From a virus (lineage: Duplodnaviria > Caudoviricetes), in the IMG/VR virus record IMGVR_UViG_3300027956_000018, positions 1 to 42,283 of that record: 42,283 bases of DNA; one strand, 5' to 3'. Positions within the stretch are counted from its first letter, which is position 1. The number at the start of each line of letters is the position of its first letter. Shown one piece after another: positions 148 through 42,283 of this stretch. The notes below the pieces were generated by a model that worked only from the letters and a program-made list of their open reading frames with translations, did no database searches and was not told the origin of the DNA. The position numbers and the translations under genes are program-made.

Positions 148-1314
148 ACTTAGGCCGACGGCGTCCCAGTTCGAAAGCCAGGCGTCGGCCGCGAACCCGT
201 CCGCGACGCCTTCGACCTTGCTTGTCGTCAAAAGCGTTTTCGCTTTTTCAAGATCGTCTGTCCATTTCGAAAGAACGGTTCGCTTCCCGTCTTTCCTGAC
301 GAAGTCGACGACGGGCCGGTCTTCAATCCTGGCCAGGCCATAAAGCTTATTTGCAAGAACTTCATTATGGGCGTGATCTTCGTCGACAAACTTCAGATAG
401 AACTTTTCCCCGGCCTTGTTCGCGACCTGTTCGCCTGGGTTCGATCCCAGTTGCGGCCCGACGTTCGTAAAATCCGAATAGTCCGGTTCGACGGCGGCCG
501 AAACGATCGCCTGGGACTGGGCGACTTCGGCGGCCGGTGCTATGACGACGACCGGCGGATCCGGCGTTATGAAGGAAAAGAAGGTCTTCGGAAGGTTCCC
601 GAAGGTGTCGACTTGCTTCTGGGCGCCGTTCGAAATAACCTTGAAGGATCCGACCCAGTCTTTATCGGCCAGGGGAAGAACGATATTTTCTTTCGCGACG
701 CCCTTCGCCGTCTGTTCGGCGATCGCCCTGGCCGTGATCTCTTTATCCGTCAGGACTTCAAGCCCCATTTTCTTGACCTGTCTTTCGGAAACCGACCGGG
801 CGACGCATCTACAATTATGACCGTTCGGCGGGTAGTTCTTCGCCCAGAAGGGATCGTCGAAGGGCGCGACCGTCCCATTCATGATCGCGTGATTCGGGCG
901 AACCCGTTCGTCGCCGAAGGTGACGTATTGAAGGAAAGGCCGGATCGCCTTTACGAAATCCTGCTGATCGAATCGGCCGGTTTGATAAGCGAAATTGATC
1001 GCGTTCCGATAGACGACTTCGGGAACGACGATATTGTTCAAAACTTCAGGCGTGATCATTCGCTTGAAGGCGGCGAAGTCCGTTCCGTTTTCGATCGCGG
1101 TGTTTGCGGCCTTCTGGATCGACAGGATCGCCCGGTTCGACAGGTCGCCCGAAACCGTCCAGGAAGTCAGTTTGTTCGCGAAGTCCTGGGCGTAAAAAGA
1201 AGCCTTGTCCATGACGACGCGGGAACGGGCGCGCGCGATCGAATCCTTTAAAACCTTCGTCATGAAGGTATTTTTGAAGCCAGTCGTCGAAAGCGGCTGA
1301 GTTTTAACGGCCAT
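1..1314 (-). CDS. MuF (Mu gpF / SPP1 gp7-like) head protein fused to an atypical kinase domain; 5' part of a gene continuing across the junction to 39914
   Basis: MuF motifs YRNAINFAYQTGR, GDERVRPNH, FWAKNYPPNGHNCRC. Kinase-like motifs GPQLGSNPG, FYLK, NEVLANKLY, DAWLSNWD, DN, RVDQGGSL. Likely ATG at 1314 after GGAAAGGG. The stop at 16-18 results from the 1-nt deletion in the left repeat copy. Confidence 0.9.
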
Positions 1315-1552: not shown

Positions 1553-3250
1553 TTAAATCAGTCCTTTTCGAACCCCGTCGTCGCCGACATAATAGGCGAT
1601 ATTGAGGGAATCGGAAAACATTTTCGCGAAGGTCGAAGCGTCGATCACGTTATTTAAGGTCGCCAGGCGAACCGTCATTTCTTCATAGGTTTCCGACGTC
1701 TTCAGGATTTCGGAGATCTTCGCCTTCAGGTCGTCGGAAAGATATGACATTCTTTCGATCGACCCGTCGATAAACTTGTCGATCCCCTTCTGAAGGGTGA
1801 AAGCTTCCCCGAATTCCTGGGCGCCCCCCTTGTCCTGGAAGGTAGATCGGCGACCCTGGGCGCCTTCCCGTTCGGTCTGGGCGGCCCCTGGCGAAGGCCT
1901 GGCGGCCGGTTCCCGGTCTTCCCCTTCGCCTTCCCCGTCCCCGGCCGGGAAACCCTGTCCCAGGGCGCCGGGTGCGGCCGGTTCGACGATTTCGAAGTCG
2001 TCTTCCTTCAGACGATAGGCGCGCGCGATATAATCTTCCGTGAAACGAACCCCGATTTTCTCCGTCAAAAGGCCGTCCCGTTCGGCCAGGTCTTTGTTTA
2101 ATTCCTTTTGATCGATCAGGGACATTACAGGACAAGCGACTTCGACCCCGAAATTCAGGTCGGTAACGATCCGGCCGATCTTCTTCAGCGTCCGTTCGAC
2201 CATTGCCCGGTCTTCGTCCTGAATTGATTCCAGGACGGTTAAATGGGTTTCGGTCGCGGCTTGGGATCCGCTTTCGGAGTTTTCGATCGTCAGGGTTTCC
2301 CCCAGGATCGCCTTCGAAATTTCGATATTCATTGAATTTTTATATGATTTATAGGCGTCGGTCGAAGACGCCTTCCCATTCGCTTCAATGACGTCGATCG
2401 TTTCGTCGCCTTCGGAACGGGTGACGACGACCCCGTTTCGGATCATTCCGGCCAGGTCGTTATGAAAATTCGTCAGGTCGGTATCGGAAGCTTTCGAATT
2501 CATCTTTCCGCGAAGAAAAGGCATCCCGTATTTTTCCAGGAATTCGGCCCAGAAGCGAAGGCCGCCCTTCTTGAATTGATACGGCCAGAAACACCTTTTC
2601 GCGGCCCGTTCCCCGTATGGGTTCCGATAGCTTCCTTCATTGACGACGGCGACGAACTTGTTCGGCGGAAGGTCGACAAGGTCGAACCCCCAGGATTGAT
2701 TGACCGACTTCGCCTTCAGGATCCCGTCTTCGTTATAGACGAACCATTCGAAGGGCTTCGCCATGACGTTTTGAAGAACGATCTGGCCGTTCGGCCGGTC
2801 GGAAGTGATCGGAAGGCGGTTGTAAAAAAGTTCAAGATAGGTCGCCCCGTAAAAGGGCGCGTCAAGAATTTCGTTGACGACTTCAGGAAGGCGTTCGATC
2901 TTGCTGAATTGTTCTTCGACCATGTCGCGCGCGGCGTCCGCCTTCGCGTCGCCCGGCTTGCCCGACAGGATCGTCAATTTCATTCGCTTGACCCGGCTTT
3001 TCCGTTGCATGACGGATCCCGCGACATGAGAATCGGCCATAAGATCGTAGTATGTCGCGGCCGTCAGTCCGGCCTTCTGAAGGACGACGTCGGGATCGGG
3101 AAGAAGGCCATTCAGGAAGACCGTGAAAAGTTCCATGTCCTTCATTTTCAGGAAATGTTCATTCGCCTTCCCCGAATCGGAAGCGCGCGCGTTTCTTTCG
3201 CCCGAAAGTTTTGTCTGAAGCGATTTCCAGAAATCATATAAGGCCGACAT
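1553..3250 (-). CDS. Portal protein, Mu gp29/DUF935-like
   Basis: Motifs ILDAPFYG, NPYGE, FWAEFLEKYGMP, ISKAILGETLT; directly downstream of the terminase. Confidence 0.9.
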   Translation of the reverse strand: MSALYDFWKSLQTKLSGERNARASDSGKANEHFLKMKDMELFTVFLNGLLPDPDVVLQKAGLTAATYYDLMADSHVAGSVMQRKSRVKRMKLTILSGKPGDAKADAARDMVEEQFSKIERLPEVVNEILDAPFYGATYLELFYNRLPITSDRPNGQIVLQNVMAKPFEWFVYNEDGILKAKSVNQSWGFDLVDLPPNKFVAVVNEGSYRNPYGERAAKRCFWPYQFKKGGLRFWAEFLEKYGMPFLRGKMNSKASDTDLTNFHNDLAGMIRNGVVVTRSEGDETIDVIEANGKASSTDAYKSYKNSMNIEISKAILGETLTIENSESGSQAATETHLTVLESIQDEDRAMVERTLKKIGRIVTDLNFGVEVACPVMSLIDQKELNKDLAERDGLLTEKIGVRFTEDYIARAYRLKEDDFEIVEPAAPGALGQGFPAGDGEGEGEDREPAARPSPGAAQTEREGAQGRRSTFQDKGGAQEFGEAFTLQKGIDKFIDGSIERMSYLSDDLKAKISEILKTSETYEEMTVRLATLNNVIDASTFAKMFSDSLNIAYYVGDDGVRKGLI

Positions 3251-12071: not shown

Positions 12072-12118
12072 TTATTCCCCTTTTCGTTTCGGTCTGTTTT
12101 GTTGTTTCCCTATAACAC

Positions 12119-12156
12119 AAGATAACTTATTTTCGGCATTAATGCAAATAAGTTAT
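12119..12156 (-). promoter_or_regulatory. Sigma70-like promoter overlapped by a nested palindrome (candidate operator)
   Basis: TTGCAT-N17-TATCTT; inverted repeat ATAACTTATTT/AAATAAGTTAT (12122-12132, 12146-12156) around GCATTAATGC. Confidence 0.7.
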
Positions 12157-12158
12157 GG

Positions 12159-13424: not shown

Positions 13425-14341
13425 TTCTGGCCCCCGTTCCCCTGGGCGGCCTGGGCGTTTCCGGCGGCCTGGCCGTCTTCCTTTTCCAGGCGGTTCTTTA
13501 TCGAAGTGATCGCCTTCTTTAACATTTTCGGGGAAACCTTGTCAACGCTATAATAACCGGCGAAGGCCGTCGGCCCTTCCCCGAAGGCCGTCGCGTCCTG
13601 AAGGATCTGTTCGGGCTTCCGATCCAGGTCGTTCGCGGCCTTCGCGACAAGGTTCTTCAGTTCAAGGCGAAGCGCCTTTTCGTCGACCGTGTCGGTCGTC
13701 CCGCCCTGGCTTCCCTTCGCGAAGTCGACCTTTCCCTTCGGTTCGATCCCCAGGACTTTCAGTTCGTCCAGGGAAGGCCGAAGCTTTAAGACCATATCAA
13801 GAAGCCGGTGTTGAAGATTTGTGACGGCCTTCTTCCTGACATTTTGAATATCGACTTCGTCGTAGGAAAGGATCTTGTTTTCCCCCCTTTGACAGAAGAA
13901 CTTGTCCTTCGTCGTCCCGGTTCCGACGTTGACATGGACGCGACCCATAAAAGAGATCTTTCCGACGGCCGTAAAATATCCGACCTTGCGGCCGTCCGCT
14001 TCGTGGCGGACTTCTTCGTCCATCGAAACGTCGAAGATTGAAGCGCCGACGATCTGAAGAACGTTCTTCACACCCGTTTCCAGAAGATAGGGCTTGTCCC
14101 CGAAAAGCGCCCAGTCAGATCCGTTCGTCGCTTTTAGGGCGACGGTTTTGATTCGGTTCGTAAAAGCGACAAGGGCTTCCGCTTCGTCGACAAGGCGTTC
14201 AATGTTCGCCTTTGTAACCTTTTCCAGGGCGACGACCTGGCGCGGGGAAAGAAGCGCCGGATCCTGGAAGATATCGTCGGCGACGATCGGCATGAGTTCG
14301 GCCGCCCGGTCGGCCGCCGTTTCGTTTTTCTGTCTGGACAT
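13421..14341 (-). CDS. Putative recombination / ssDNA-annealing protein
   Basis: First gene of the ATPase + exonuclease module; size fits phage SSAPs. Family not recognised with certainty. Confidence 0.45.
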   Translation of the reverse strand: MSRQKNETAADRAAELMPIVADDIFQDPALLSPRQVVALEKVTKANIERLVDEAEALVAFTNRIKTVALKATNGSDWALFGDKPYLLETGVKNVLQIVGASIFDVSMDEEVRHEADGRKVGYFTAVGKISFMGRVHVNVGTGTTKDKFFCQRGENKILSYDEVDIQNVRKKAVTNLQHRLLDMVLKLRPSLDELKVLGIEPKGKVDFAKGSQGGTTDTVDEKALRLELKNLVAKAANDLDRKPEQILQDATAFGEGPTAFAGYYSVDKVSPKMLKKAITSIKNRLEKEDGQAAGNAQAAQGNGGQK

Positions 14342-14402
14342 GGAAGATCCTTTCGATTAAGTTTTTTGTTTCGCCGGTTTGACCCGGCCGTCCCATGAAA
14401 GA

Positions 14403-14431
14403 AGTATAATTAATTTTCGTCTTCAATGCAA
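14403..14431 (-). promoter_or_regulatory. Sigma70-like promoter, same family as the 12.1 kb promoter
   Basis: TTGCAT-N17-TATACT; shares TTATTTGCATT..CGAAAAT..TTAT with 12119-12152. Confidence 0.7.
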
Positions 14432-14511
14432 ATAATCTTTAAAGTTGCCCCGTCGCCCAGGGAGTTTTTCGGCCATACCTAATAGACAGGCCTGGGCGAC
14501 AGGACGTTTTT

Positions 14512-15423
14512 TTATAACGCCATGAGAAGGCTAAAGGCGTTTTCCTTGACGGTCTTCGCGGATCCGATCATGGACGCCCGTTCGGCGCGCGCCATGTCGT
14601 TATTAAAACGGTAATGATCCAGATATTCCGTGACCGCGTTATAGGCATCCCAGGCCGATCGGCCGAAGTTCCCCAGGCCTGAGAAGAACAGATCGAAGAC
14701 CTGGCTTCGAACCTTCTTTGTTTGCGTCGGAACTTCGATCGCGTCTTCCGTGACCCCGGCCGCGCGCGCCTTCCTGGCTTCGGGCGTATTAACCGGGAAG
14801 ACTTCGGAAATAAACCGCTTGACCGCTTCGGCGTCCATGATCTTCCGATCCAGTTCGCGCGCCAGTTCAAGCGACCTGAAAAGATAGGCGTCGACCTTCG
14901 CGTAAACCTTCAGGGCTTCCGCGATCTTCGCTTCGGCCGAAGCGACATGACGGATCGAAAGGCGACCGATTTCGGCGTCATGGCGAACCATTCCGTTCGA
15001 ACAGACGACGACGTCGAACAAAGGCGCGATCCGAAGGGCGCCGGATCCGTCGAAGCAATTCAGGATCCGAAGGCCGGTCTGGATCTGATCGCCCCGATTC
15101 CTGACAGTCCAGGATGTCGGCGTCGGAAACCGCATCGTCAAAGCGACCTTCGATCCGCCTTCCCAGGCCGTCGCCTTCTCAAAATATCCGCCGTTGTCGC
15201 GCGCCAGGACGTCGAAGAAAGAAAAGGCGGCCGTATTCTGGACGGGGAAATAGCGTTTCCCGACGACGCCCAGGATCCCGCCGTTGTCGGAACGGATCAG
15301 GGCTTTATGAGATTTGATTTCCCGGCCGTCGGCCGTCAAGATTTCCCGTTCTTCAGCCTTCCAGGCCATACCATAAGCTTCGATCGCTTCGGCGGCCCGT
15401 TCGAATTTTTGCGTCGTCGTCAT
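14512..15423 (-). CDS. DUF932 family phage/plasmid protein
   Basis: ILGVVGKRYFPVQN, NCFDGSGAL, VVCSNG, SAWDAYNAVTEYLDH. Confidence 0.85.
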   Translation of the reverse strand: MTTTQKFERAAEAIEAYGMAWKAEEREILTADGREIKSHKALIRSDNGGILGVVGKRYFPVQNTAAFSFFDVLARDNGGYFEKATAWEGGSKVALTMRFPTPTSWTVRNRGDQIQTGLRILNCFDGSGALRIAPLFDVVVCSNGMVRHDAEIGRLSIRHVASAEAKIAEALKVYAKVDAYLFRSLELARELDRKIMDAEAVKRFISEVFPVNTPEARKARAAGVTEDAIEVPTQTKKVRSQVFDLFFSGLGNFGRSAWDAYNAVTEYLDHYRFNNDMARAERASMIGSAKTVKENAFSLLMAL

Positions 15424-18898: not shown

Positions 18899-19202
18899 AA
18901 TTCATTAATCGAAGGTAGTATTCCGCGACGTCGTCAGGGACGGTCGGATCCAGGACTGGGCCGGGCGTTTCGACCTGGACAAGGTTTCCGCCGGTCGCGG
19001 CGACGTCGTTTCCCAGGATCGTGACTTCGCCCAGGGCGACTTCTTGATCTTCGATCAAGGGGTTCCCCAGGAAATTCATTAAAAGAAGATAATAGTTCGT
19101 TATGTCAATCGAAAGGTTCCCGGTCGGAGAATACCAGACGTCGGTCTGGATCGTCTGATCCTGCCAAATATCCGACCTGATTAAAGTCGAATCCAGGATC
19201 AT
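18873..19202 (-). CDS. Hypothetical tail-region protein
   Basis: Coupled ORF with an internal repeat YYL(L/R)LMNF(L/V)GN. Confidence 0.6.
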   Translation of the reverse strand: MILDSTLIRSDIWQDQTIQTDVWYSPTGNLSIDITNYYLLLMNFLGNPLIEDQEVALGEVTILGNDVAATGGNLVQVETPGPVLDPTVPDDVAEYYLRLMNFVGNVVYA

Positions 19203-21784
19203 AAAACTTCTTCCTTGGAAACCTTTTCGACGCCTTCGACGGAAGTATAGGTCGCTTCAACAGTTTTTTCATTCGCCCCGGTTCCGACTTTATAGGTCTT
19301 CGGGTTTCCGGCCGAAGTCCGCGTCAGGACTTCTTTATTTAGGTTGTCTTCAAGCCCGGCGAACCTGGGCGCGATTGCAGTATCGATCGACTGACAGGCG
19401 TTCGCCCCGATCGCCATGACCGTAACATTGTTATTGACCGCATCCCAGGCGCCGGATCCGTGGGCGGCCGTAAGAACGACATTCGCGTCGTTCGCCAGGC
19501 GGCCATTATTTTGAATAAGATTCGGGATAGTTCCGGCCGTCCCGGTTTCCAGGACGAAGTCGGCGTCGGCGAATCCATAAGCATTATTTACAATCGTAAC
19601 GCCCCGGCCGGGCCGTAACTTGATCGCGTGATAAGTCGAAGCGACCTGAAGGAATGAATTATTTTTGATATTCGTAAAGGCCGAAGTCCTGACTTCAAGA
19701 TCGATCGTGTCCTTAACGAACGAATTGAAAACATTGTTGTCAATGAAAATCTTTCCGAATCCCGATCCGTAATCGGTTCCGATCGCGTGATCGATTGTTC
19801 CGCCCCCGGCCAGGCCGTAGTTATGATGAATCCGACCGCTTGTAATGTCGCGGAAGTTGATAAGAAACTTCGTCCCGGCGTCGCCGACGGGCGGCGTCCC
19901 GATTCCGTAACAACGTGTAATTTCAGAATCTTCGGCCATCCAGACGATCGAATCAAGAAGATTGTTGAAGCTTTTTCCTAACCATACTCCGGTCATTCGG
20001 GCGCCTTCTTTAAGGCGAATGATCGGCGTCGTCTGGCTGACATAGGTTCCGTAAATTTTCGGAAGTTCGCCGTTTTCGTCCGGTTGCGATCCCGGTTCGT
20101 CCTGGGGGACGCCTATTAATTCAAGCTTTGCGGGGACGACGATATTTTCATTATAGGGATTGAAGACATATCCGACAACGATCAACTGTCCGCCTTCGAA
20201 GTCGACAAATTGCGCCGTCCCGCCATTAACGCCCGAAATAGTTTTCTTCGCAGTAAGCCTTGTCTTTCCGTCGTTCGCGTCATTACCGGCGACCGTGTCG
20301 ACCCATATCCGCTTCATAGGAAGCGTCCGCCGAACGATTTCGTCGACCTGATCGTCGACAGTCGCGACGGAATTCAAGATCGAAGTTGTGTCCTGTTTTA
20401 TTTCGATCGCCTTCGCGGAAATACCGTCGACTTTTATCTGAAGATCGTCGACCCCGACCTGGACGGCGTCGACGTCCGCCCCGACGGAAACGAGTGTCGC
20501 TTCTTTCGCGCCCAGGGAAAGGATCGAAGTCGTCGCCTGTTCAATCGAAATGACGTCCGATCCGATCGCGTCGACCTTGTCGTCGACAACTTCGACCGCG
20601 TCGCCGACGGCTTCGACGGCCGCGTCGACAGAAAGGACGGCCGCCCCAACAAGGTTGACCGTCGCTTCTTTCGCGCCGTTCGCCAGGATCGAAACGGTGT
20701 CCTGTCTGATTCCGACCGCGTCCGCCGAAATCCCGTCGACCTTGATATTGATCTGATCGATCGCGGCCCCGACGGTTGAAAGGGTTCCTTCTTTCGCCCC
20801 GACAGCCAGGATTGAAACCGTATCGGCCTTGATTCCGACGGCCAGGACTGAAATTCCGTTTACCGTTGTCTGAATATCGTCGACCCCGACGGCGACTTCG
20901 TCCAGAGTTGCGCCTTCGATAAAACCGTCAATCGAAGACGATCCCGAAACCGTAATTTCGTTATGACCGCCCCCGCCTTTGATTGTAAGGACGCCAGAAA
21001 CGGCCCCGCCGAAAAGATAGCCGAAGCAACCGTAAAGATTTGCGTTTATAACTTCATGATTTAACTGAAGGACGCCCTTCAGGCCGCGAACAGTTAGGGC
21101 CGTGACGTTGTATGAAACATTTCCGTAAATAACGACTGAACCTTCGAAACCGTCGACGATTATATTCGCGTTCCCGGCCCCGCATTGATTGTCAATATAG
21201 AGAAATCCGCGACAACCCCGAATATAGAGATTAACCGGCCCCCCTGAAAGCGTGATCGCCTGGCCGTCGTCGAAGGTTCGATCGGCGAATATCTTATCCG
21301 TCGTTACGGTTTCGGCCTGGACGACGTCGAAAAGAAGATCCGTCTTCGCCTTAATGGAAACCGTGTTTTGCTTTATCAGGATCGCGTCGGCGGAAATACC
21401 GTCGACCTTAATCCCGATCGCGTCGACCTTCGCTTCGACGTCGCCGTAGGTGAACGGAAGTTCGGCGGCCGCGTTCCCGAAGGTAATGAGTTCGACCATT
21501 TGATCGACCCATAATTTCGTCGCCGTCTGATCGACAATCTTCGCCTGAATTTTCTTTCCCGTCATTTCCCCGGCCGACAGGGTTAAGCCCCAGGTCTTCG
21601 AAGTAATGTCGCCGACCTGAAAGGGAAGATTTGCGGCCGCGAAGTTCGTCGTCCCGTCGACGGAAATCTTGACGTCCCCGGCCGCGAACCCGCCGATTAT
21701 GGTCGAAGCGAAATCGGTCGTCCCGAAGGCCGACAGGGGGAAATATATTTCGGTCGCCGTGGCATATTTGCGAAGAAGTTCCAT
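19199..21784 (-). CDS. Large tail fibre/spike with coiled-coil repeats and a beta-helix domain
   Basis: Repeats KVDGISA..I(K/R)QDT.SIL..GAKE(A/G)T; WVDTVAGNDANDG..TAKKTI motif typical of pectin-lyase-like beta-helices; Asn-ladder segments. Confidence 0.7.
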   Translation of the reverse strand: MELLRKYATATEIYFPLSAFGTTDFASTIIGGFAAGDVKISVDGTTNFAAANLPFQVGDITSKTWGLTLSAGEMTGKKIQAKIVDQTATKLWVDQMVELITFGNAAAELPFTYGDVEAKVDAIGIKVDGISADAILIKQNTVSIKAKTDLLFDVVQAETVTTDKIFADRTFDDGQAITLSGGPVNLYIRGCRGFLYIDNQCGAGNANIIVDGFEGSVVIYGNVSYNVTALTVRGLKGVLQLNHEVINANLYGCFGYLFGGAVSGVLTIKGGGGHNEITVSGSSSIDGFIEGATLDEVAVGVDDIQTTVNGISVLAVGIKADTVSILAVGAKEGTLSTVGAAIDQINIKVDGISADAVGIRQDTVSILANGAKEATVNLVGAAVLSVDAAVEAVGDAVEVVDDKVDAIGSDVISIEQATTSILSLGAKEATLVSVGADVDAVQVGVDDLQIKVDGISAKAIEIKQDTTSILNSVATVDDQVDEIVRRTLPMKRIWVDTVAGNDANDGKTRLTAKKTISGVNGGTAQFVDFEGGQLIVVGYVFNPYNENIVVPAKLELIGVPQDEPGSQPDENGELPKIYGTYVSQTTPIIRLKEGARMTGVWLGKSFNNLLDSIVWMAEDSEITRCYGIGTPPVGDAGTKFLINFRDITSGRIHHNYGLAGGGTIDHAIGTDYGSGFGKIFIDNNVFNSFVKDTIDLEVRTSAFTNIKNNSFLQVASTYHAIKLRPGRGVTIVNNAYGFADADFVLETGTAGTIPNLIQNNGRLANDANVVLTAAHGSGAWDAVNNNVTVMAIGANACQSIDTAIAPRFAGLEDNLNKEVLTRTSAGNPKTYKVGTGANEKTVEATYTSVEGVEKVSKEEVL

Positions 21785-34821: not shown

Positions 34822-35742
34822 TTATGCAATGCAAGCGGAAAGGTGATAGCCGAAGTCTTCGGCGATCAACTTTTCAACGGACTGGTGTTCGACCTGGACG
34901 ACGCGGCGGCCGCCGACGCCTTTGGTCGGATCGTCCCATTTCCGAACCTGGAAAGTCGCGGATCCGGCGATCTTCTTCGCGAACAGGGCGCCGAAGGCGG
35001 GTGTCTTCAGTCCCAGGGCGCGGGGAACGTAGGCCAGGACGCAGGACTTCCCCCAGACGTAGGACAGGGAGGGATCCTTCGGAAGCTTCGTCGAAGACTT
35101 CCTGGCCCCGGCGACGACGACCCTTTCCAGGCCGAAGAGTTGCGCGACCATTGCTTCGGTCGCGATCTTCAGTCCGGTGAAACCCCCGCCGATCGCGGCG
35201 AGAATGTTCGCGTTGAATTTCAGGGCGTCCCAGACCGGCCGGGAAACGACCATGACGTTCGGGCGAACGAACATGGCATTGGCGGCGGCTTCAATGTCCG
35301 TGATCGGCGTTGAAGTCGTCGACCATTTCGTCGAAACGGCGGCCGTGTTTGTCGACATGGCGGCGACGACGGCGGCCGCGCGGATTTCCCGGCCCAGAAG
35401 GATCGCGTCCGTCAGGGCTTCGGTTTCTTCCATTTCCGGCTTCAGGGGATCGTCGGCGTTGTCGATGTCGTCCTGGGTGATGAAACCGCGAAGACCGTAA
35501 TCCTTCACGGAATAAGTGTCGGTTGTCGTCGCGAACTGGAGTTCGTGCGCGTCCGCGTTCTTCGAAAGCTTGTCGTCGACGACCTGGAAGGCGTTCCCCT
35601 TCTTGTAGATCGTGTAGAGATCGGCGCCCTTGGTGACGGGCCGTTCGGGAAAAAGAACCTGGGCGACGAAGGCGTCCTGGCGGTACGCGATTGAAACGTC
35701 CGTCAGGCGCTGATCGATATGGCCGAGCTTTGTTTCCGACAT
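34822..35742 (-). CDS. Major capsid protein (HK97 fold)
   Basis: IDQRLTDVSIAYRQ, RPNVMVV..VWDALK; position after the protease and decoration genes. Confidence 0.88.
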   Translation of the reverse strand: MSETKLGHIDQRLTDVSIAYRQDAFVAQVLFPERPVTKGADLYTIYKKGNAFQVVDDKLSKNADAHELQFATTTDTYSVKDYGLRGFITQDDIDNADDPLKPEMEETEALTDAILLGREIRAAAVVAAMSTNTAAVSTKWSTTSTPITDIEAAANAMFVRPNVMVVSRPVWDALKFNANILAAIGGGFTGLKIATEAMVAQLFGLERVVVAGARKSSTKLPKDPSLSYVWGKSCVLAYVPRALGLKTPAFGALFAKKIAGSATFQVRKWDDPTKGVGGRRVVQVEHQSVEKLIAEDFGYHLSACIA

Positions 35743-36191: not shown

Positions 36192-36755
36192 TTACTTCTT
36201 CGCGGACTTGATTTTCGCGCGCGCCTGGATCAAGGCCTGGCCGAAGGTGAGTTTCGAATCGGCCTTCATGATCTTGTCCGCTTCGGCGCGTTCTTCGGAA
36301 TAGACGGCTTCGTCGCCCTGGGCGCCCTTGTCGTTCGTTCCGCGATATTCCCCGGCGGGTGCGGCGACGATATTCGCGACGAAGGATTTCATGGCGGCCA
36401 GGAAGGTCTTCTTGACCTGGGCGTCTTTGCCGTCGGCGCCCTTCTCCGTGAATTCGATTTCTTTTGCGGGATCGGCGGAAAGAAGAACCGGGCGAAGGAT
36501 CGCGACCTGGGCGGGTGTGACCTTGTCGCCGAATTCCTTGATCGCGGCTTCGACGTCGGCGGAATAGGCGGCGACCTTCTGGGCGTCGGCGGCCTTCTGG
36601 GCGAATTCCGCTTCGGTCGCGGCCTTCGCGTCTTTCGCGGCCTTGTCGGTCGCGGTCTTCAGGGTTTCGGCGAACTGGACGTCGGCGGCCTTCTTCGCGG
36701 CTTCGGCGGCCTTGTCCTGAATTTCCTGGATCTCTTTTTCAGTGTATTCTTTCAC
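36192..36755 (-). CDS. Nested in-frame scaffold protein (Mu gpZ-like)
   Basis: Internal AAGGGGA SD followed by in-frame GTG at 36755, at the protease/scaffold boundary. Confidence 0.6.
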   Translation of the reverse strand: MKEYTEKEIQEIQDKAAEAAKKAADVQFAETLKTATDKAAKDAKAATEAEFAQKAADAQKVAAYSADVEAAIKEFGDKVTPAQVAILRPVLLSADPAKEIEFTEKGADGKDAQVKKTFLAAMKSFVANIVAAPAGEYRGTNDKGAQGDEAVYSEERAEADKIMKADSKLTFGQALIQARAKIKSAKK

Positions 36756-37235
36756 GGGATTCCCCTTCGGGTTAAGGTTAAAATCATATTCCTTCTGGGT
36801 TTCGAAATGATCGGCGGAATAGGCGCCCTGATAAACGTCCTGAAGACCCTTGACGGCCGGTGTCGCGGCCCCCAGGAAAGCCAGGTGATGTAAATAAAAG
36901 CGACCTTCTTCGTCGGCGCGGATCCCGATTGACCGCTTTTTAAAGCGGCCTTCGCGGACAAGGGAATCGAAATCGGTCGCGACTTGCTTCAGTTTTGCGT
37001 AAAGCGTCGAACCGATCCGCTTCAGGCCGGAAACCCAGGCGGCCGCCGGGCGGTCGTTATGATCTTCGCGGATATGTCCCAGGGTGACGGGCGGTTCATG
37101 ACTGGCGGGATTGAAGGTCGAAACAAGATCGTCGAAAACTTCTTCGGTTAAGTCGCCTTGCGGGAAGGTTCCGGTCTTCGCGACTTCGAACCAATCTTCC
37201 AGGGCCGAAAATTCTTTCGCCGGGTTCTTTTTCAT
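36192..37235 (-). CDS. Prohead protease + scaffold (Mu gpI-like)
   Basis: PVTLGH, PAAAWV, GRFKKRSI, LHHLAFLGAATPAVKGL; Ala/Lys/Glu-rich C-terminal scaffold. Confidence 0.88.
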   Translation of the reverse strand: MKKNPAKEFSALEDWFEVAKTGTFPQGDLTEEVFDDLVSTFNPASHEPPVTLGHIREDHNDRPAAAWVSGLKRIGSTLYAKLKQVATDFDSLVREGRFKKRSIGIRADEEGRFYLHHLAFLGAATPAVKGLQDVYQGAYSADHFETQKEYDFNLNPKGNPVKEYTEKEIQEIQDKAAEAAKKAADVQFAETLKTATDKAAKDAKAATEAEFAQKAADAQKVAAYSADVEAAIKEFGDKVTPAQVAILRPVLLSADPAKEIEFTEKGADGKDAQVKKTFLAAMKSFVANIVAAPAGEYRGTNDKGAQGDEAVYSEERAEADKIMKADSKLTFGQALIQARAKIKSAKK

Positions 37236-37283: not shown

Positions 37284-37670
37284 TCAGGCCGGAACTTTGA
37301 CCCGTTCAAGATCCTGTTTTTTTATCGACCGAAAGTGATTCGGCGCAATCTTTCGCCCGGCCGCGACGGCCAGACCGGCGACGCAATTACAGGGGACAGT
37401 CGTTCCCAGGCGGTCATAAATCGATCCGGTCGACTTCCGGTAATGACGATAACCGGGGATCGGAAACATTCGAACCGGCCCAAACATGGATTGAAATTTC
37501 CAGTCCCTTTCGGTTCCGTTCCCTTCCTTCCAGTCGGTCGGAGTAAGGATCCCCATGTCGGGCGGTTCGCCCTGGGCTTCCTTCATTCCGTCGACGTAGT
37601 AACAACAATTTTCACAATGTTCCTTTTCTTCGTCGGGAAGGCCGACTTCAGCCGTAAAACCTGGATTCAT
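37284..37670 (-). CDS. Hypothetical Cys-containing protein coupled to the initiator
   Basis: ATGA overlap with the initiator stop; CENCC and CNC motifs. Confidence 0.55.
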   Translation of the reverse strand: MNPGFTAEVGLPDEEKEHCENCCYYVDGMKEAQGEPPDMGILTPTDWKEGNGTERDWKFQSMFGPVRMFPIPGYRHYRKSTGSIYDRLGTTVPCNCVAGLAVAAGRKIAPNHFRSIKKQDLERVKVPA

Positions 37671-38425
37671 TTTGTCCCCCTTCTTTCCCATACCTGATTT
37701 TGTTTCATAGACAGGGCGTTCGAAAGCGTCGCCTTTAGGTCGATCGACGCGGCCCGTTTTTTCTTCTTGTGTTTCCATCCGGCTTCAGTCCCCCAGAAAA
37801 GATTCATAGCCTTTTCCAGAGAAAGGCGAATGTCCAGGCCGGGATTATATTTTTTCATTTCGGCCATCCATTCAGGATCCTTCATGATTTCCGTCCATTG
37901 CCTTTTTAATTCGGCCGAATAGACGGCGAAGTCTTCCTTCCAGGTCTTCGGTTTCCCCCCAGTCCCCCCTTCCCCTCTTTCTTCTTCTTTGTCTTTAAGA
38001 TTTAAAGAATCCTTATCCTTATCCTTATCCTTAACGGTATGACATACCGTATCGGGTAGAGTATGGGATAGGGTATCGAATACAGTATCAAGAAGGGAAA
38101 GGTCGGAAAGGCGTTTTTTTACGTTATTATGAAACTTTGATTCCGTCAGGTGTCCATATTGAAATTTTATAAAGTCGACGACAAAAAGATAGTTTCCAGG
38201 ATCGACCGCAAGAAGGCGGACTTTTTTTCCGTTAATTTCTTCGACGATTTTATTGTCGACGACTGTTCCGATCTGAAAAGAAGCCAGGCCGAAATCTACC
38301 TTCCAGATCCCGGCAAAGTCGCAATTATCAAGAATGTATTTCCAGAAAAGTTTTCCGACCGGCGAAAGTTCCCTATACCATTGATCGGCCCAGATTGTCG
38401 TTTCGGAAAGTCGCTTCGCCATCAT
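37667..38425 (-). CDS. Phage replication initiator (replisome organiser / lambda O-like architecture)
   Basis: TIWADQWYRELS..KLFWKYILDNCDFAGI wHTH-like N-terminus; repeat-coded linker and KDKDKDKD; helical C-terminus. Confidence 0.8.
   Translation of the reverse strand: MMAKRLSETTIWADQWYRELSPVGKLFWKYILDNCDFAGIWKVDFGLASFQIGTVVDNKIVEEINGKKVRLLAVDPGNYLFVVDFIKFQYGHLTESKFHNNVKKRLSDLSLLDTVFDTLSHTLPDTVCHTVKDKDKDKDSLNLKDKEEERGEGGTGGKPKTWKEDFAVYSAELKRQWTEIMKDPEWMAEMKKYNPGLDIRLSLEKAMNLFWGTEAGWKHKKKKRAASIDLKATLSNALSMKQNQVWERRGTK
38037..38096. repeat. Five 12-bp-period iteron-like repeats (putative origin) inside the initiator gene
   Basis: GTAT at 38037, 38049, 38061, 38073 and 38085; adjacent (TTATCC)3 and an AT-rich tract. 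Confidence 0.65.
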
Positions 38426-38546
38426 AAAACCCCTTCAGAAAAGGGCCGTCCCAGGCCGGGCGACCTACGAGAGAAGCCCGACCTGGGAACAGTTCCGCCA
38501 TGAAGACGAAACGGCCGATTATTTTAAAGGTGGTTTCGTAGGTCGC
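38426..38546 (-). promoter_or_regulatory. Structured 5' leader of the initiator gene
   Basis: Two overlapping inverted-repeat pairs plus a hairpin over the SD. Confidence 0.55.
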
Positions 38547-38550
38547 TTTT

Positions 38551-38579
38551 AATATAGCGAAAGCATTTCAAGAAGTCAA
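38551..38579 (-). promoter_or_regulatory. Sigma70-like promoter of the initiator gene
   Basis: TTGACT-N17-TATATT, the same hexamers as the 16.5 kb early promoter. Confidence 0.75.
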
Positions 38580-38618
38580 TACGCAAAATATAGGGCTTCG
38601 CGCGCGCGCGGCCACAAG

Positions 38619-38780
38619 TCAAAAGTCTTTCCGTGAAAGTTCACAGTTCAAAAGTGAATTTACCAGGAAGAAGTCGGCCATGATCGGATCTTCCCTGGGC
38701 GCCGGGCGACCTGTCTTCGCGTCCCCGTCGTCCCTGGCCAGGGCTTTCAGGAATTTATAGACGAAGGTTTCTTGAAACAT
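38619..38780 (-). CDS. Small hypothetical protein (53 aa)
   Basis: Hand translation MFQETFVYKFLKALARDDG...; TAATG overlap with the upstream gene. Confidence 0.4.
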   Translation of the reverse strand: MFQETFVYKFLKALARDDGDAKTGRPAPREDPIMADFFLVNSLLNCELSRKDF

Positions 38781-39232
38781 TAAAAGGCCTTGAAGGTCTG
38801 AAGGCCGTTGATCCGCTTCAGAAGGTCGGCCGCGTCCTTCCCGGTTTCCATTTCTACAAGGACATTTCGGCGGACGACGACAAGACAGAAGACCGGCCCC
38901 CGGTTGTCGGGTATGAAACCGAAATAGTATTCGACGACAGTTGTTTCGTTCGTCGCCTTGTCCTTCTGGAAGTCCCGCCAGACCGCAAGTGGATCCAGGA
39001 CGATCGCGGCCGCGACGTCCATTTTCTTTTCATTTTCCAGGGCGCCCAGAATCCGAGATCCGAAGGTCGTCGGATAAGCGTCGATCGGCTTCAAGGTCGC
39101 CCGGTTAAGGTTTGGCGACGCGGCCATATAGTTTGATTTTACAAGAAGGGGAAGGGCGTCAAGAAGTTCGACGATTTCTTCGTCCCTTTGTTGACTGAAG
39201 TTCAAGGGCGCGGTCTTCGTTTCTTCGGCCAT
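38780..39232 (-). CDS. Hypothetical protein (third gene after the MuF fusion)
   Basis: Start re-assigned to MAEETK at 39232 after GAAAGGGGG. Confidence 0.7.
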   Translation of the reverse strand: MAEETKTAPLNFSQQRDEEIVELLDALPLLVKSNYMAASPNLNRATLKPIDAYPTTFGSRILGALENEKKMDVAAAIVLDPLAVWRDFQKDKATNETTVVEYYFGFIPDNRGPVFCLVVVRRNVLVEMETGKDAADLLKRINGLQTFKAF

Positions 39233-39551
39233 TAAGTAACCCCCTTTCCTGATATTTTCGCATTTCGATCCAGACGTCAAGGCATGATGATTTATAATCT
39301 TCGTCCGCCGTTATTGCGCCTTTAAAGCCATCGTAATTTATTTTTTCGATTTGACCGATCATGAATTTTCTGAAGTCGTCGCGGCTAATTACCGCCCTGA
39401 ATTGATAATCGGCAAGGCGCGTTTCTTGAATGTCCGCCAGTGGAAAAAGATCTTGAAGGTGTGTATGGCTTCGGGATCGAACAAGAAGAAGAGTGTCAGA
39501 CCGGCGGAAGGCGACGACAGAAATAAAACCTTTGACAGTAAAGATCCACAA
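39159..39551 (-). CDS. Conserved-type hypothetical protein (MWIFTxxGFISVV...ADYxFRA...YDGFK)
   Basis: GTG start after TCGAAAGGGGG; resembles a recurrent uncharacterised phage/MGE family (from recollection, not a search). Confidence 0.75.
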   Translation of the reverse strand: MWIFTVKGFISVVAFRRSDTLLLVRSRSHTHLQDLFPLADIQETRLADYQFRAVISRDDFRKFMIGQIEKINYDGFKGAITADEDYKSSCLDVWIEMRKYQERGLLNGRRNEDRALELQSTKGRRNRRTS

Positions 39552-39569: not shown

Positions 39570-39917
39570 TTAAGCCTTTCGAAGATATTCAAGGGCTTTC
39601 GCGTGTCGTTCCGGCCCCTGTTCAAGATAGTTATAAAGCGGTTCTTCCGCCCAGATTTCTTTTTCGGTCGGCGGTCTTAATATATAGATTTTGTTCTTCC
39701 AGGTCAAGGCGCCGGTCTTCTGGAATTTACCCTTGATATTCGAAACCCTGGGCCGGTCGATATAATCATTCGGCGCGTCCCAGTCCCAGGTAAAAACAAA
39801 AACTTCATTCAGTTTTTCCACAAGATCCGCGACGACTGTTACCGCGTTGTTTTCCGTGTTTTCGATCACAAGGCCGTCGATCAGGGCGGCCCGTTCAAGT
39901 TCGGTTAAGGGTTTCAT
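39570..39917 (-). CDS. Hypothetical protein translationally coupled to the MuF fusion (candidate immunity)
   Basis: ATGA overlap at 39914-39917 with the MuF fusion stop. Confidence 0.7.
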   Translation of the reverse strand: MKPLTELERAALIDGLVIENTENNAVTVVADLVEKLNEVFVFTWDWDAPNDYIDRPRVSNIKGKFQKTGALTWKNKIYILRPPTEKEIWAEEPLYNYLEQGPERHAKALEYLRKA

Positions 39918-42283
39918 TTATAGCCTGTCTTTGGATCGAAGTTTATTTCCTGGCGAAGTTTGACGACGTCGCGAACCTTGCGGCCGCCGGGAAGGGTTTC
40001 TTCGTAACCGTGTTTTTTAAGGACGGCGATCACTTTTTCTTTTATTTCGTTGGATTCTACCGTGATATAGCGAAGACCTTCAAAGAAGTCGACCGACCCC
40101 TTGAAGTTCGTTTCGTTATCTGAAGAAATATCCGCGAATCGTTTATATTCGGGCGTCGAACTTTTTCTTTGAACGATATTCGCCTTCTTCACGTTTCCCC
40201 AAGAATCCCCGAAATAACTGACCGCGTCCAGGCGGCGGATTTTGTCGGGATCGTAAATAATCCCGGTTCGCGGAAGATTAAGGGCGTGTTTTATCCGAAG
40301 GAAGCAATAATTTCCCCCGCCTGTTTTAACGTCTGAATTCGGAGAGATCCCGAAGGTAACGATTCCCCGGTCGATCCTTTCAAGTGTCGAAAAGTATTTC
40401 CCGCCCGACGAAAGAATCCGATCTATAACGACGTCCCAGACTTTGTCTTTATCTCTCTCTATTCCGTTTACTTCGGTCGTCCCCAGGGCTTCATGAGTTA
40501 GACTATGGGTTCGACTGAAGTCGTCGAAGTCCTGGCCTAAATCGGTTTCAAGGCGTTTCGGCGCCATGCGGACGATCGCGCCGTCGCCCTTCGCGCCTTC
40601 CCTTCTTCCGATCGGGTTATAGTCCGGTTCTTTGTCGACGACGAAGTTTTCAAGCCCCCGGCGTTTCCCGATCAGGTTGACGTTATTTTTCAGAAGGGCG
40701 ATCCGTCCTTCCTGATCCTTTATTTTCGCGGCGTCTTCAAGAAGCCGGTCGACATTCGCGGGATCGAACTTCGCGATCATTTGATTTAGATAAAGTTCTT
40801 CGACGTCGGCGAACTTCGGCGCGGTCGTTTCGATTCCCAGATCGTCGATTATGTCCATGATCTTTGTCGTTGCCCGACTGGCCGGGCCTTCGACCCTGAC
40901 GGAAACCCGGCCAGTATAGGCGAAGGCGTCCTTATCCGTGACAAGTTGGATCCGCGATCCCTTGTAATTCGATTCAAGAATAATGTCCATCGGTTTGACG
41001 TTTGCCCCCAGGGCGACTTTGTCCGTTTCAAAAACTTCGCCGTTTTTGAATTCGGAAATCCTGGGAACAAGTTGCTTTTTGTGAAACTTCATTCCGGCCT
41101 TCGCGGTCGGTTCGGGCTGAATCGGCGTCGGCAAAACGTGACCCTGGAAAAGGCCTTCTTTCTTGAAGACCGGCGCGATCTTCTTTTCCAGGGAAGGCTT
41201 CAAAGCTTCTTCCATAGCGTCGATCCAGGATTTATAAAAGACCGAAAAGTCCCTGGCGACCTGGGCCGGATAGTTCCCCAGTTTGACCATTTCAAGAAGC
41301 GTCGATTCAACGGCCCTAAATCTTGTTTTCGCTTCTTCAAGCCATCCGTTCGCGATCGTCGTTCCCAGGGAATTGCCGTTTCGTTCGGCGACCTTGATCT
41401 TCCGAAGGGAAGCCAGAAGGGATTCGTTCAACGGAGCAAGATCGGGCGCGTTTATCGGTTCTTCGGCGCTGATATCCCTGAATAACTTCTTCCAGTATTT
41501 TTCGCGAAGCTTGAAGGTCGCGGTCGTTACCTTCTGGCCGGAAGGATCGAAGGTTTCCCTGAAATTGATTTGCTGATCTTCGATCGCGCCTTTGTCGCCT
41601 GGGACGTTATAACCGACCGACTTCGATTCCGTGATCTTCGCCTTGTCCTTCGCCGTGACCTTCTGGGCGCCCCGTTCGAAGTCCCGGGCTTCCTGGCTTT
41701 CTTTCTTCAGGCGTTCGAAGACTTCGTTCGAAGTCGTCGCGGCTTCTTCCTGGGCGGCCTTGTCGGCGGCCTTCAGGGCGTCTTTCTTCGCCTTGTCCTG
41801 GGCGGCGGCTTCCTTCTGGGCGGCGATCGCTTTATCCTTCGCGGCCTTGTCGGCGGCCGTCTTTGCCTTCTTCGCTTCGGCGGCGGCGGTCTTCGCGGCC
41901 TTCTGTTCAAGCTTCCCGGCGGCCTTCTGTTCGGCGGCCCAGGCTTTAACGTCGTCCCGACGGGCGATCAGTTTATCGGCCAGGGCTTTCTTTTCGGCGG
42001 CCGTCCCGTTCGAAAAGGCGTTCACAAGTTTCCGAATGTCGGCCGACTTGATCTTCCCGACCCGTTCGGCGCCGGGTAAAAAATCGGCCGTTGAATAGTT
42101 CCTGAAGACTTCGAAGGCCTGTTTATTAGCGCCTTCGTCCAGGAAGGTCTTCAGTTCGACGACCTTGTCCCCGAAAGCGGCCCCCTTCGGTTGTCCCTGG
42201 GCGCGGAACTTCAGGGATCCGCCCTGATCGACCCTGAAGGCCTTCTTCTTCCCGGCGACTTCCTTGATCATCATGTTATCGTA
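39914..42283 (-). CDS. 3' part of the MuF-kinase fusion: kinase C-lobe, Ala/Lys linker, unknown middle domain, C-terminal ADP-ribosyltransferase-like domain
   Basis: In frame with 1314-148 through the terminal repeat (about 1,178 aa total). C-terminal LTH..RILSSGGKYFST..YCFLRI..NE.NF..LRYITVES pattern. Confidence 0.85.
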   Translation of the reverse strand, partial: YDNMMIKEVAGKKKAFRVDQGGSLKFRAQGQPKGAAFGDKVVELKTFLDEGANKQAFEVFRNYSTADFLPGAERVGKIKSADIRKLVNAFSNGTAAEKKALADKLIARRDDVKAWAAEQKAAGKLEQKAAKTAAAEAKKAKTAADKAAKDKAIAAQKEAAAQDKAKKDALKAADKAAQEEAATTSNEVFERLKKESQEARDFERGAQKVTAKDKAKITESKSVGYNVPGDKGAIEDQQINFRETFDPSGQKVTTATFKLREKYWKKLFRDISAEEPINAPDLAPLNESLLASLRKIKVAERNGNSLGTTIANGWLEEAKTRFRAVESTLLEMVKLGNYPAQVARDFSVFYKSWIDAMEEALKPSLEKKIAPVFKKEGLFQGHVLPTPIQPEPTAKAGMKFHKKQLVPRISEFKNGEVFETDKVALGANVKPMDIILESNYKGSRIQLVTDKDAFAYTGRVSVRVEGPASRATTKIMDIIDDLGIETTAPKFADVEELYLNQMIAKFDPANVDRLLEDAAKIKDQEGRIALLKNNVNLIGKRRGLENFVVDKEPDYNPIGRREGAKGDGAIVRMAPKRLETDLGQDFDDFSRTHSLTHEALGTTEVNGIERDKDKVWDVVIDRILSSGGKYFSTLERIDRGIVTFGISPNSDVKTGGGNYCFLRIKHALNLPRTGIIYDPDKIRRLDAVSYFGDSWGNVKKANIVQRKSSTPEYKRFADISSDNETNFKGSVDFFEGLRYITVESNEIKEKVIAVLKKHGYEETLPGGRKVRDVVKLRQEINFDPKTGYK
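42136..42283. repeat. Terminal direct repeat, right copy
   Basis: Matches 1-147 with one extra C at 42157, which keeps the reading frame open. Confidence 0.95.

What the first reader, a model, noticed from the sequence alone, without database searches (positions are those of the whole stretch)
39914..42283. Hidden ~1,180-aa MuF head protein carrying both a kinase and a DarT-like ADP-ribosyltransferase domain, split by the contig ends
Seen: the 446-aa and 786-aa ORFs share MMIKEVAGKKKAFRVDQGGSL... and join through the terminal repeat into one gene (1314 to 148, then 42283 to 39914). Domain order is MuF, Pro/Ala linker, kinase-like domain (Gly loop GPQLGSNPG, Lys in FYLK, Glu in NEVLA, catalytic-loop-like NWD...DN, Mg-binding-like RVDQG), Ala/Lys helical tether (about 41740-41940), an unknown domain of about 350 aa, and a terminal domain (about 39950-40510). 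The terminal pattern (LTH, IL.SGG...S, YCFL, NE, I.V....KEKV..VL) resembles DarT/DUF4433-type ART folds. Known: MuF proteins are minor head components thought to be delivered with the DNA, and some carry C-terminal toxin domains, usually one. Inference: this is a virion-delivered dual-enzyme effector (phosphorylation plus ADP-ribosylation) acting before phage gene expression, for host takeover, anti-defence or competition.
Basis: partly seen in the sequence, partly recalled or inferred. Interest (0 to 1): 0.88.

Follow-up and report, generated by a model that had tools for sequence, protein, structure and literature searches.

The report
Phage head protein carrying kinase-ART pair
A gene cut in two by the contig ends encodes one 1,178-residue phage head protein with a predicted kinase and a predicted DarT-fold ADP-ribosyltransferase, a pairing found across many phages, that is likely injected with the DNA to chemically disable host molecules and likely held in check by a small neighbouring protein.

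Summary
The contig ends overlap by 147/148 nt. A separately assembled circular contig (probably the same sample) spans the join and carries the base missing from the start copy, so the gene is one 1,178-aa ORF: MuF, kinase, Ala/Lys tether, middle domain, ART.

A relative's kinase (47% identical over the aligned N-terminal part) folds like CtkA/CotH/PI4K-II/HipA (Z 15.8). K308, E318, D384, N392 and D408 are invariant. The C-terminal domain's only ART matches are DarT structures (Z 7.3-8.6, moderate), with a conserved H986-Y1048-E1113 triad.

It is not a one-off. The C-terminal module has about 2,000 relatives at 50% clustering. The kinase shares a polypeptide with an ART in 40 of 56 viral and 57 of 79 genome loci, usually of the R-S-E class. 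A small coupled downstream gene tracks the DarT-like ART (15 of 17 versus 1 of 62 loci), suggesting immunity.

The concept (MuF toxins, polyvalent head proteins with kinases and ARTs) is published; I did not find these two domain families or their pairing in the libraries or papers searched. Packaging, activity and targets are untested. New variant of a known kind.

The parts
148..1314 (-). 5' part of the gene (residues 1-389, Met at 1314; the upstream ATG at 1356 lies inside the purine-poor stretch and lacks the GGA-rich site seen before 1314)
799..1119 (-). MuF (Phage_Mu_F / SPP1 gp7-type minor head) domain, residues 66-172
   Evidence: Pfam PF04233 E 1e-19; PHROG 220 'minor head protein and DNA pilot' E 4e-39; TIGR01641
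148..483 (-). kinase N-lobe and catalytic loop: Gly loop, K308, E318, D384
   Evidence: fold of relative L003
1..147 (.). redundant start copy of the terminal overlap, lacking one C after position 21 (assembly-end error)
41945..42283 (-). kinase C-lobe: N392, D408 (RVDQG), FRAQG, helical remainder (residues 390-502)
41702..41944 (-). Ala/Lys-rich tether, residues 503-583 (36% Ala, 23% Lys)
40661..41701 (-). middle domain: beta-sheet with inserted helical bundle (41117-41458); conserved D619, E624, D625, K647, R649; weak CYTH/TTM-like signals
39938..40540 (-). DarT-fold H-Y-E ADP-ribosyltransferase domain (H986, Y1048, E1113; also invariant or near-invariant D1040, R1052, R1073, D1075, D1082)
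39570..39917 (-). 115-aa ORF overlapping the stop codon (ATGA); candidate immunity protein of the ART
39159..39551 (-). about 115-130-aa conserved ORF of no known family, linked to kinase-bearing head proteins
1553..3250 (-). portal gene directly upstream (terminase at 3287-5065 beyond it); head protease 36192-37235 and major capsid 34822-35742 lie downstream

Best explanation
This is one intact MuF head-protein gene whose product likely rides in the capsid at the portal and is likely ejected with the DNA, carrying a predicted CtkA/HipA/PI4K-type kinase and a predicted DarT-fold ADP-ribosyltransferase that would modify host molecules before phage genes are expressed, with the coupled downstream 115-aa protein likely neutralising the ART. 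SHOWN: the gene is intact; MuF is present; the gene lies between portal and protease/capsid; both catalytic residue sets are conserved; the kinase is paired with an ART across the family; the small gene tracks the DarT-like ART. PREDICTED: both folds. INFERRED: packaging, ejection, activity, immunity. My split on the ART target is nucleic acid about 0.45 (DarT is the nearest fold; many invariant Arg/Tyr/Asp), protein about 0.35, NAD consumption about 0.2. The kinase most likely phosphorylates host proteins (Ser/Thr), as HipA, CtkA and T7K do (HipA and CtkA activity recalled). The most likely purpose is to blunt host defences or take over the cell in the first minutes, with immunity protecting the producing cell during assembly or lysogeny.
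For: Join. MuF and head-module position. SPP1 gp7 is in the capsid at 1-2 copies with the portal (PMC5576092, passages); 80alpha minor capsid gp44 is an ejected DNA-end-binding protein (PMC7290940, abstract). The kinase also fuses to other head carriers, portal PF06381 and DUF2213. Kinase model pLDDT 97; VIA CtkA Z 15.8 (rmsd 3.2, 206 aligned), CotH 14.3, PI4KIIa 14.1, MavQ 13.1, HipA 12.2; Foldseek CtkA E 2.5e-7. K, E, D, N, D are invariant in 90 of 90 rows where present and intact in the window. C-terminal model pLDDT 89.5, pTM 0.86. Four DarT entries match model residues 382-588: 7omv Z 8.4 (rmsd 4.3, 162 aligned), 8baq 7.7, 7omu 7.5, 7yk3 7.3; 7omw 8.6. H/Y/E conserved at 91/91/100% of 151 rows and in 35/35/36 of 36. 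Kinase plus ART in cis: 40 of 56 viral representatives, 51 of 56 in the locus; 57 of 79 genome loci. Downstream 99-175-aa ORF in 20 of 20 loci. A profile trained on viral loci hits 15 of 17 genome loci with this ART and 1 of 62 without. In Jamet et al., 89% of MuF toxin genes have such an ORF, against 25.5% of short MuFs (PMC5576092, passages).
Against: No experiment shows packaging, ejection or activity for any member; Pan1 mass-spectrometry calls are only in a figure I could not see. The kinase fold was predicted for a relative (L003), not for the window's protein. The DarT match is moderate: Foldseek E 0.21, probability 0.84; Z 7-8.6 lies in the range the tool calls possibly a common arrangement; no sequence profile reaches DarT. 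The window's copy has Asp1027 where 35 of 36 relatives have Arg, and Glu295 where 88% have Gly in the Gly loop, so this copy might be weakened. By spacing, DarT's thymidine-locking H119 corresponds to an aromatic residue here. The window's 115-aa protein matches the downstream family only weakly (rank 7 of 2,001 against shuffles) and lacks its conserved His. No integrase was found among the ORFs scanned, whereas MuF toxins were reported on temperate phages.
Confidence: 0.6

Rival explanations
1. Competition toxin: the protein is packaged, but its job is to kill or arrest non-immune cells hit by the virion, or to bias lysis versus lysogeny, as proposed for MuF toxins; lysogens are protected by the small downstream gene.
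For: Toxin-plus-immunity layout. 17 of 79 genome loci carry the module, in Endozoicomonas, Halomonas, Methyloversatilis, Thalassotalea and others. Model in PMC5576092 (passages). Bxa is a precedent for a prophage ART with two immunity proteins (PMC11699363, abstract).
Against: No integrase was detected in this complete genome. Killing the infected cell before immunity is made would abort the phage's own infection. The persistent pairing with a kinase, Nudix and Acb1 domains looks more like a counter-defence kit.
Confidence: 0.2
2. Self-protection: the ART marks the phage's own incoming or packaged DNA, or DNA-bound proteins at the genome ends to which MuF tethers it, to shield it from nucleases; the kinase switches the ART or nearby nucleases on or off.
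For: DarT acts on ssDNA (PMC9967889, passages). A minor capsid protein binds and protects genome ends (PMC7290940, abstract). The middle domain and ART form one compact unit (pTM 0.86).
Against: DarT-type adducts block replication (PMC9503650, passages), and no DarG/NADAR/ARH-type eraser was found among the window ORFs scanned. The same kinase pairs mostly with R-S-E ARTs of the Alt/VIP2 type, which modify proteins.
Confidence: 0.1
3. The domains are largely inactive cargo or act late: the protein is a structural head component, or the enzymes work in the producer cell during assembly, and this copy is decaying.
For: D1027 and E295 depart from the family consensus. There are no virion data. 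Kinase-less and MuF-less versions exist.
Against: All core catalytic residues are intact and strongly conserved across distant relatives at 25-45% identity. The ORF is open and has phage-typical codon-position GC.
Confidence: 0.1

Closest known systems
MuF polymorphic toxins (Jamet 2017, PMC5576092; Zhang 2012, PMC3482391)
   Same: N-terminal MuF, C-terminal enzyme, small downstream ORF, position in the packaging module; 14% of their 191 toxins are ARTs.
   Different: Two catalytic domains plus a conserved middle domain; neither enzyme is recognised by Pfam. Their Table S5 labels four deltaproteobacterial MuFs of about 1,525 aa 'Kinase' without a type, which I could not compare. This phage shows no integrase.
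Polyvalent proteins (Iyer 2017, PMC5512222)
   Same: Large multi-enzyme phage proteins predicted to be injected, including ARTs and kinases.
   Different: Their kinase lacks the whole C-terminal subdomain and has His and Asp in the loop; this one keeps a full helical C-lobe and has NWD-x7-N with no His. Their ART is H-Y-D; this one is H-Y-E with DarT as nearest fold.
DarT toxins (7omv, 8baq, 7yk3; PMC9967889)
   Same: Predicted fold; H, Y and E at matching positions by range and spacing; Arg1028 lies 20 residues before the Tyr, as R51 does before Y71.
   Different: No sequence-level match; fused to a head protein instead of standing in a bacterial anti-phage TA pair; partner is a small non-macrodomain protein; H119 is not kept; substrate unknown.
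T4 Alt and MuF-fused Alt/VIP2 ARTs (PMC9503650, section 3.7.1)
   Same: Head-packaged ART delivered with the DNA.
   Different: R-S-E class there; an R-S-E profile does not match the window protein, although that class is the kinase's usual partner elsewhere.
CtkA / HipA / CotH / PI4K-II / MavQ atypical kinases; T7 kinase as functional analogue (PMC13645617, passages)
   Same: Kinase fold and catalytic residues; T7K shows that a phage kinase can disarm defences broadly.
   Different: Below Pfam HipA_C and HipA_2 cut-offs; protein versus lipid or small-molecule substrate is unresolved; T7K is an early expressed gene, not a head fusion, and I did not compare sequences.

Membership tests
MuF toxin | N-terminal MuF domain | tested here: met
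   PF04233 71.8 bits, cut-off 29.6
MuF toxin | gene in the terminase-portal-head module | tested here: met
MuF toxin | C-terminal enzymatic domain followed by a small ORF under 150 aa | tested here: met
MuF toxin | temperate phage or prophage | tested here: inconclusive
   no integrase among scanned ORFs; relatives lie in bacterial genomes
MuF toxin | toxicity neutralised by the downstream protein; presence in virions | not testable with these tools
   needs bench work
Polyvalent-protein kinase (Iyer 2017) | loss of the C-terminal subdomain; His and Asp with an insert between them | tested here: not met
   C-lobe helices present, aligned over 1-232 with CtkA; no His in the loop
Polyvalent-protein ART (Tox-ART-HYD2) | H-Y-D triad | tested here: not met
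   Glu at the third position in 151 of 151 rows; no Pfam hit
H-Y-[EDQ] ART clade | ART fold with His, Tyr and Glu on the core strands | tested here: met
   register with DarT inferred from aligned ranges and spacing, not from coordinates
DarT (PF14487) | profile match | tested here: not met
   no hit (the control genomes also gave none)
DarT (PF14487) | R51 and H119 equivalents | tested here: inconclusive
   Arg1027/1028 conserved in the family (window D1027, R1028); aromatic residue at the H119-like place; placed by spacing only
DarT (PF14487) | adjacent DarG macrodomain or NADAR antitoxin | tested here: not met
   neighbours have no such Pfam/NCBIfam/PADLOC hit
DarT (PF14487) | ADP-ribosylation of ssDNA | not testable with these tools
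   needs an assay
HipA/CtkA/PI3-4K-like atypical kinases | fold plus Lys, Glu, catalytic Asp/Asn and Mg-binding Asp | tested here: met
   relative L003; window residues
HipA_C / HipA_2 Pfam families | score over the curated cut-off | tested here: not met
   32 of 90 and 8 of 90 rows hit weakly at E <= 0.1, best E 8e-5; cut-off not reached where shown
CYTH/TTM (middle domain) | tunnel fold with ExExK motif | tested here: inconclusive
   VIA Z 5.8 and 5.7, HMM E 0.2; K647-x-R649 kept but the two Glu of the recalled motif are absent

The most novel reading that the evidence does not exclude
Phages have turned the bacterial anti-phage weapon around: a large, uncatalogued family of DarT-fold enzymes is packaged in capsids and ADP-ribosylates host or rival DNA/RNA on injection. 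It works as one module with a dedicated head-borne kinase (and possibly a third, CYTH-like site in the middle domain), and is blocked by its own new family of immunity proteins.
Probability: 0.27. Interest if true: 0.85.

Novelty: new variant of a known kind. Interest (0 to 1): 0.62.

Why it matters
Two enzyme families sit unannotated inside many phage 'minor head' proteins. The kinase is in an estimated 830 IMG/VR stretches and 20 records of cultured phages. The DarT-like module is in about 2,000 clusters. Their near-constant pairing, with the ART class exchanged several times, points to a general injected phosphorylation-plus-ADP-ribosylation kit. It names catalytic residues, a candidate immunity gene and cultured carriers (Pan1, DSL-LC01, Dolphis, Gordonia phages), which makes the long-standing untested idea of MuF-delivered effectors directly testable. 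A virion-delivered nucleic-acid ART would be new.

Tried and rejected
Single-sequence searches found no usable match: IMG/VR scans, PDB phmmer (13, 14; best E 1.4-2.1), the ART homologue search and the junction pattern. Relatives came only through the kinase search and profiles. ESM Atlas gave unnamed clusters for the ART (18) and nothing for the middle domain. Foldseek against viral models gave no match at E<=0.001; the top rows were uncharacterised giant-virus and phage proteins. Helical-bundle hits at Z 8-9 map to residues 80-195 of the model and are generic. ESMFold2 co-folding of the window ART with the 115-aa protein gave no verdict (score 0.01, mark 0.32). The 115-aa protein has no close homologue; a profile-profile comparison failed to run. 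A DarT family search of the own genome found nothing, and neither did its controls. The first genome scan with the narrow ART pattern was empty. An hrp-box motif scan (motif recalled) upstream of three Pseudomonas kinase-Nudix genes found none, so their identity with HopAG1 stays unverified. Earlier-findings look-ups were empty. Rejected: a true frameshift or split gene; an R-S-E ART in the window; membership of the polyvalent kinase and HYD-ART clades.
Full report
OBSERVATION. The window is a 42,283-nt phage record that IMG/VR classes as linear. Its first 147 nt repeat its last 148 nt, with one C missing after position 21 in the start copy. Reading the minus strand 1314->148 and then 42283->39914 gives 1,178 codons and one stop. 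A Logan contig of run X1 is 42,166 nt long (the 42,136-nt unit plus 30). It covers both ends in one piece, shows the C, and maps window 147 and 42283 to the same record position. X1 may be the source sample, and the three other runs laid do not cover the join. A kinase profile made without the window row spans the join (2-221 of 225 positions, 239.7 bits). Intact relatives have the same order of domains. The split is therefore an assembly artefact. Residue numbers below start at Met 1314.

CONTEXT. The gene lies after terminase and portal and before protease and major capsid genes, in a phage with a Baseplate_J gene and a DUF2586 gene (sheath role recalled). MuF scores well over its cut-off. 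No integrase or transposase appeared in Pfam scans of 18 and 30 ORFs or a PHROG scan of 15; together these included all minus-strand ORFs over 300 aa.

KINASE. The window's kinase is split between the contig ends, so I folded the same domain of relative L003 (same architecture; 47% identical to the window's N-terminal kinase part) with 90 rows (pLDDT 97). VIA ranks CtkA Z 15.8, CotH 14.3, PI4KII-alpha 14.1, MavQ 13.1 and HipA 12.2; Foldseek agrees. K308, E318, N382, D384, N392 and D408 are invariant and present in the window; Glu295 replaces a Gly found in 88% of rows (where the printed window numbers run two too high; checked). Pfam gives only weak HipA_C (32 of 90 rows) and HipA_2 (8 of 90) hits. 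The family is common: 576 of 601 scanned IMG/VR stretches were confirmed, with about 830 estimated; 168 of 194 in GTDB genomes; 20 phage records, including Pseudomonas phage Dolphis and Gordonia phages. The nearest folds include protein and lipid kinases, so the substrate is open.

ART. Residues 584-1178 were folded with 101 rows (pLDDT 89.5, pTM 0.86). For model residues 382-588, the listed matches are DarT structures: 7omv Z 8.4 (rmsd 4.3, 162 aligned), 8baq 7.7, 7omu 7.5, 7yk3 7.3 and 7omw 8.6. Foldseek gives 7omy probability 0.84 but E 0.21. These scores are moderate, only 50 rows are shown, and other H-Y-E families are not excluded. H986, Y1048 and E1113 are kept in 91%, 91% and 100% of 151 rows. 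DarT uses H13, R51, Y71, H119 and E160 (PMC9967889, passages). By spacing, R1028 fits R51, while the H119 position is aromatic. The window has Asp1027 where 35 of 36 rows have Arg. No Pfam, NCBIfam or PADLOC model hits the C-terminal half, and PHROGs gives only a weak tail-fibre hit on the tether. A four-sequence profile of the pre-ART and ART region finds 2,006 clusters at E<=0.001 and 1,249 at 1e-10. Among the best 150, 114 carry the kinase (104 of the 113 that are 900 aa or longer), and 52 carry MuF by a narrow profile; that ranking is biased, because the seeds were kinase-bearing. Kinase-less versions exist (L016, L018-L023, Pan1 gp15, a Streptomyces plasmid).

MIDDLE DOMAIN. It is a beta-sheet with an inserted helical bundle. 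The bundle also occurs alone and in R-S-E proteins, and is not detected in Pan1. D619, E624, D625, K647 and R649 are 72-100% conserved. Three weak signals point to CYTH/TTM folds (CYTH label for 1yem, 2dc4 and 2een recalled): VIA Z 5.8 and 5.7, a low Foldseek row and an HMM hit at E 0.2. This is a lead only.

THE PAIRING. From 86 kinase ORFs in 80 IMG/VR loci I kept 56 complete cluster representatives (68 clusters, 12 incomplete dropped). Of these, 40 carry an ART in the same polypeptide and 51 in the locus (own profiles). Pfam alone finds an ART in 22 of the 51 scanned. In genomes, 57 of 79 loci have both in cis, 17 of them with the DarT-like class. The carrier varies (MuF, portal PF06381, DUF2213), as do extra domains (Nudix, WGR, Acb1, topoisomerase IB). 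On a FastTree tree of 75 kinase domains (all 30 HYE, 45 of 89 RSE at random), ART class changes at least 6 times against a shuffled mean of 24. The classes cluster but were exchanged more than once; support is weak in places. So the window's architecture is one version of a recurring kinase-ART cassette.

NEIGHBOURS. In 20 of 20 loci examined (19 of the 23 IMG/VR loci after dropping four near-duplicates, plus Pan1), a 99-175-aa ORF starts within -13 to +71 nt of the stop. A profile from these viral ORFs hits 15 of 17 genome loci with the DarT-like ART and 1 of 62 without; that one, L116, shows a kinase ORF ending early. The window's 115-aa ORF overlaps the stop (ATGA) and matches the family weakly (2 of 500 shuffles scored higher; rank 7 of 2,001). 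The next gene (39159-39551) belongs to an unnamed family found in 35 of 77 kinase loci with at least 2 kb of room, against 1 of 9 without a detected kinase, and in 15 of 17 and 15 of 62 genome loci.

MECHANISM. Shown: intact gene, MuF, head-module position, conserved catalytic sets, pairing, linked small gene. Predicted: folds. Inferred: one or two copies bind at the portal through MuF and are ejected with the genome; the tethered kinase and ART then modify host targets before transcription; the small protein inhibits the ART in the producing cell. I give this 0.6. Rivals are a competition toxin (0.2), marking of the phage's own DNA (0.1), and inactive or late-acting cargo (0.1).

LITERATURE. 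MuF toxins with ART domains and downstream small ORFs are described (PMC5576092, passages and supplement rows; four MuFs labelled 'Kinase' without type). Polyvalent injected proteins with kinases and ARTs are described, but with a C-lobe-less kinase and an H-Y-D ART (PMC5512222, passages and the ART section). MuF-fused ARTs are mainly Alt/VIP2 and N4 types, and the DarT-related viral family named is ORF28 of arthropod viruses (PMC9503650, passages, section 3.7.1; supplement search negative). I also saw PMC3482391, PMC13645617, PMC9837993, PMC11760712 and PMC4981494 as passages, and PMC7290940 and PMC11699363 as abstracts. Ten searches showed no paper on this kinase family, this ART family or their pairing. 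Figures, the FTP file of Iyer 2017, one scanned supplement of Jamet 2017 and most subscription journals were not seen and could hold them.

VERDICT. Real and correctly read by the first stage. It is a new variant of MuF/polyvalent effectors, built from two uncatalogued enzyme families that are widespread and paired. Interest 0.62; 0.85 if the ART proves to be a virion-delivered nucleic-acid modifier (probability about 0.27).

Noticed in passing
window 39159-39551: Unnamed family of about 115-130 aa, strongly linked to kinase-bearing head proteins (also Dolphis gp120), sometimes on the opposite strand; candidate kinase antidote or partner; no Pfam or PHROG hit.
   Followed up: partly
L153:6140-8287, L155:6140-8290, L179:6074-8341: Pseudomonas syringae-group genomes carry the same kinase fused to a C-terminal Nudix domain (715-755 aa), which recalls the effector HopAG1 (Nudix noted in PMC4981494; identity not verified, no hrp box found).
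   Followed up: partly
L040, L047-L049, L105 (Dolphis): N-terminally long kinase-ART gene followed by a 157-167-aa gene and a Nudix or Nudix-kinase gene: a repeated cluster in phages of about 90 kb.
   Followed up: partly
L130, L146, L147, L161, L181: Giant ORFs (2,500 to over 4,800 aa) with this kinase, one with six R-S-E ART matches and two kinase matches, in actinobacterial, Dehalococcoidia and related genomes.
   Followed up: no
L116-L126: Several Endozoicomonas prophage copies of the full MuF-kinase-middle-ART module; L116 and L126 end early, and a stand-alone helical-bundle gene follows in four loci.
   Followed up: partly
L186:4219-6483 (Streptomyces mirabilis plasmid): The DarT-like ART ends a 754-aa plasmid protein followed by small genes, with an ADP-ribosylglycohydrolase gene about 5 kb away; 9 Streptomyces plasmids match.
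   Followed up: no
L027, L034: Nudix-kinase proteins fused to a topoisomerase IB domain; L057 and P0029 carry Acb1 with Nudix, kinase and ART.
   Followed up: no
window 11013-15423: Cas4-like exonuclease, SMC-like ATPase, a 306-aa unknown and DUF932 form a recombination-type block; a Dam methylase lies at 7025-7552 and a DEDDh-type exonuclease at 9179-9862.
   Followed up: no
window 37284-39280: Three ORFs (166, 252, 164 aa) without credible family hits sit between the effector locus and the head protease; none has homologues in the fetched viral loci.
   Followed up: partly
window 19199-21784: 861-aa ORF at the end of the tail module with no Pfam or PHROG hit.
   Followed up: no
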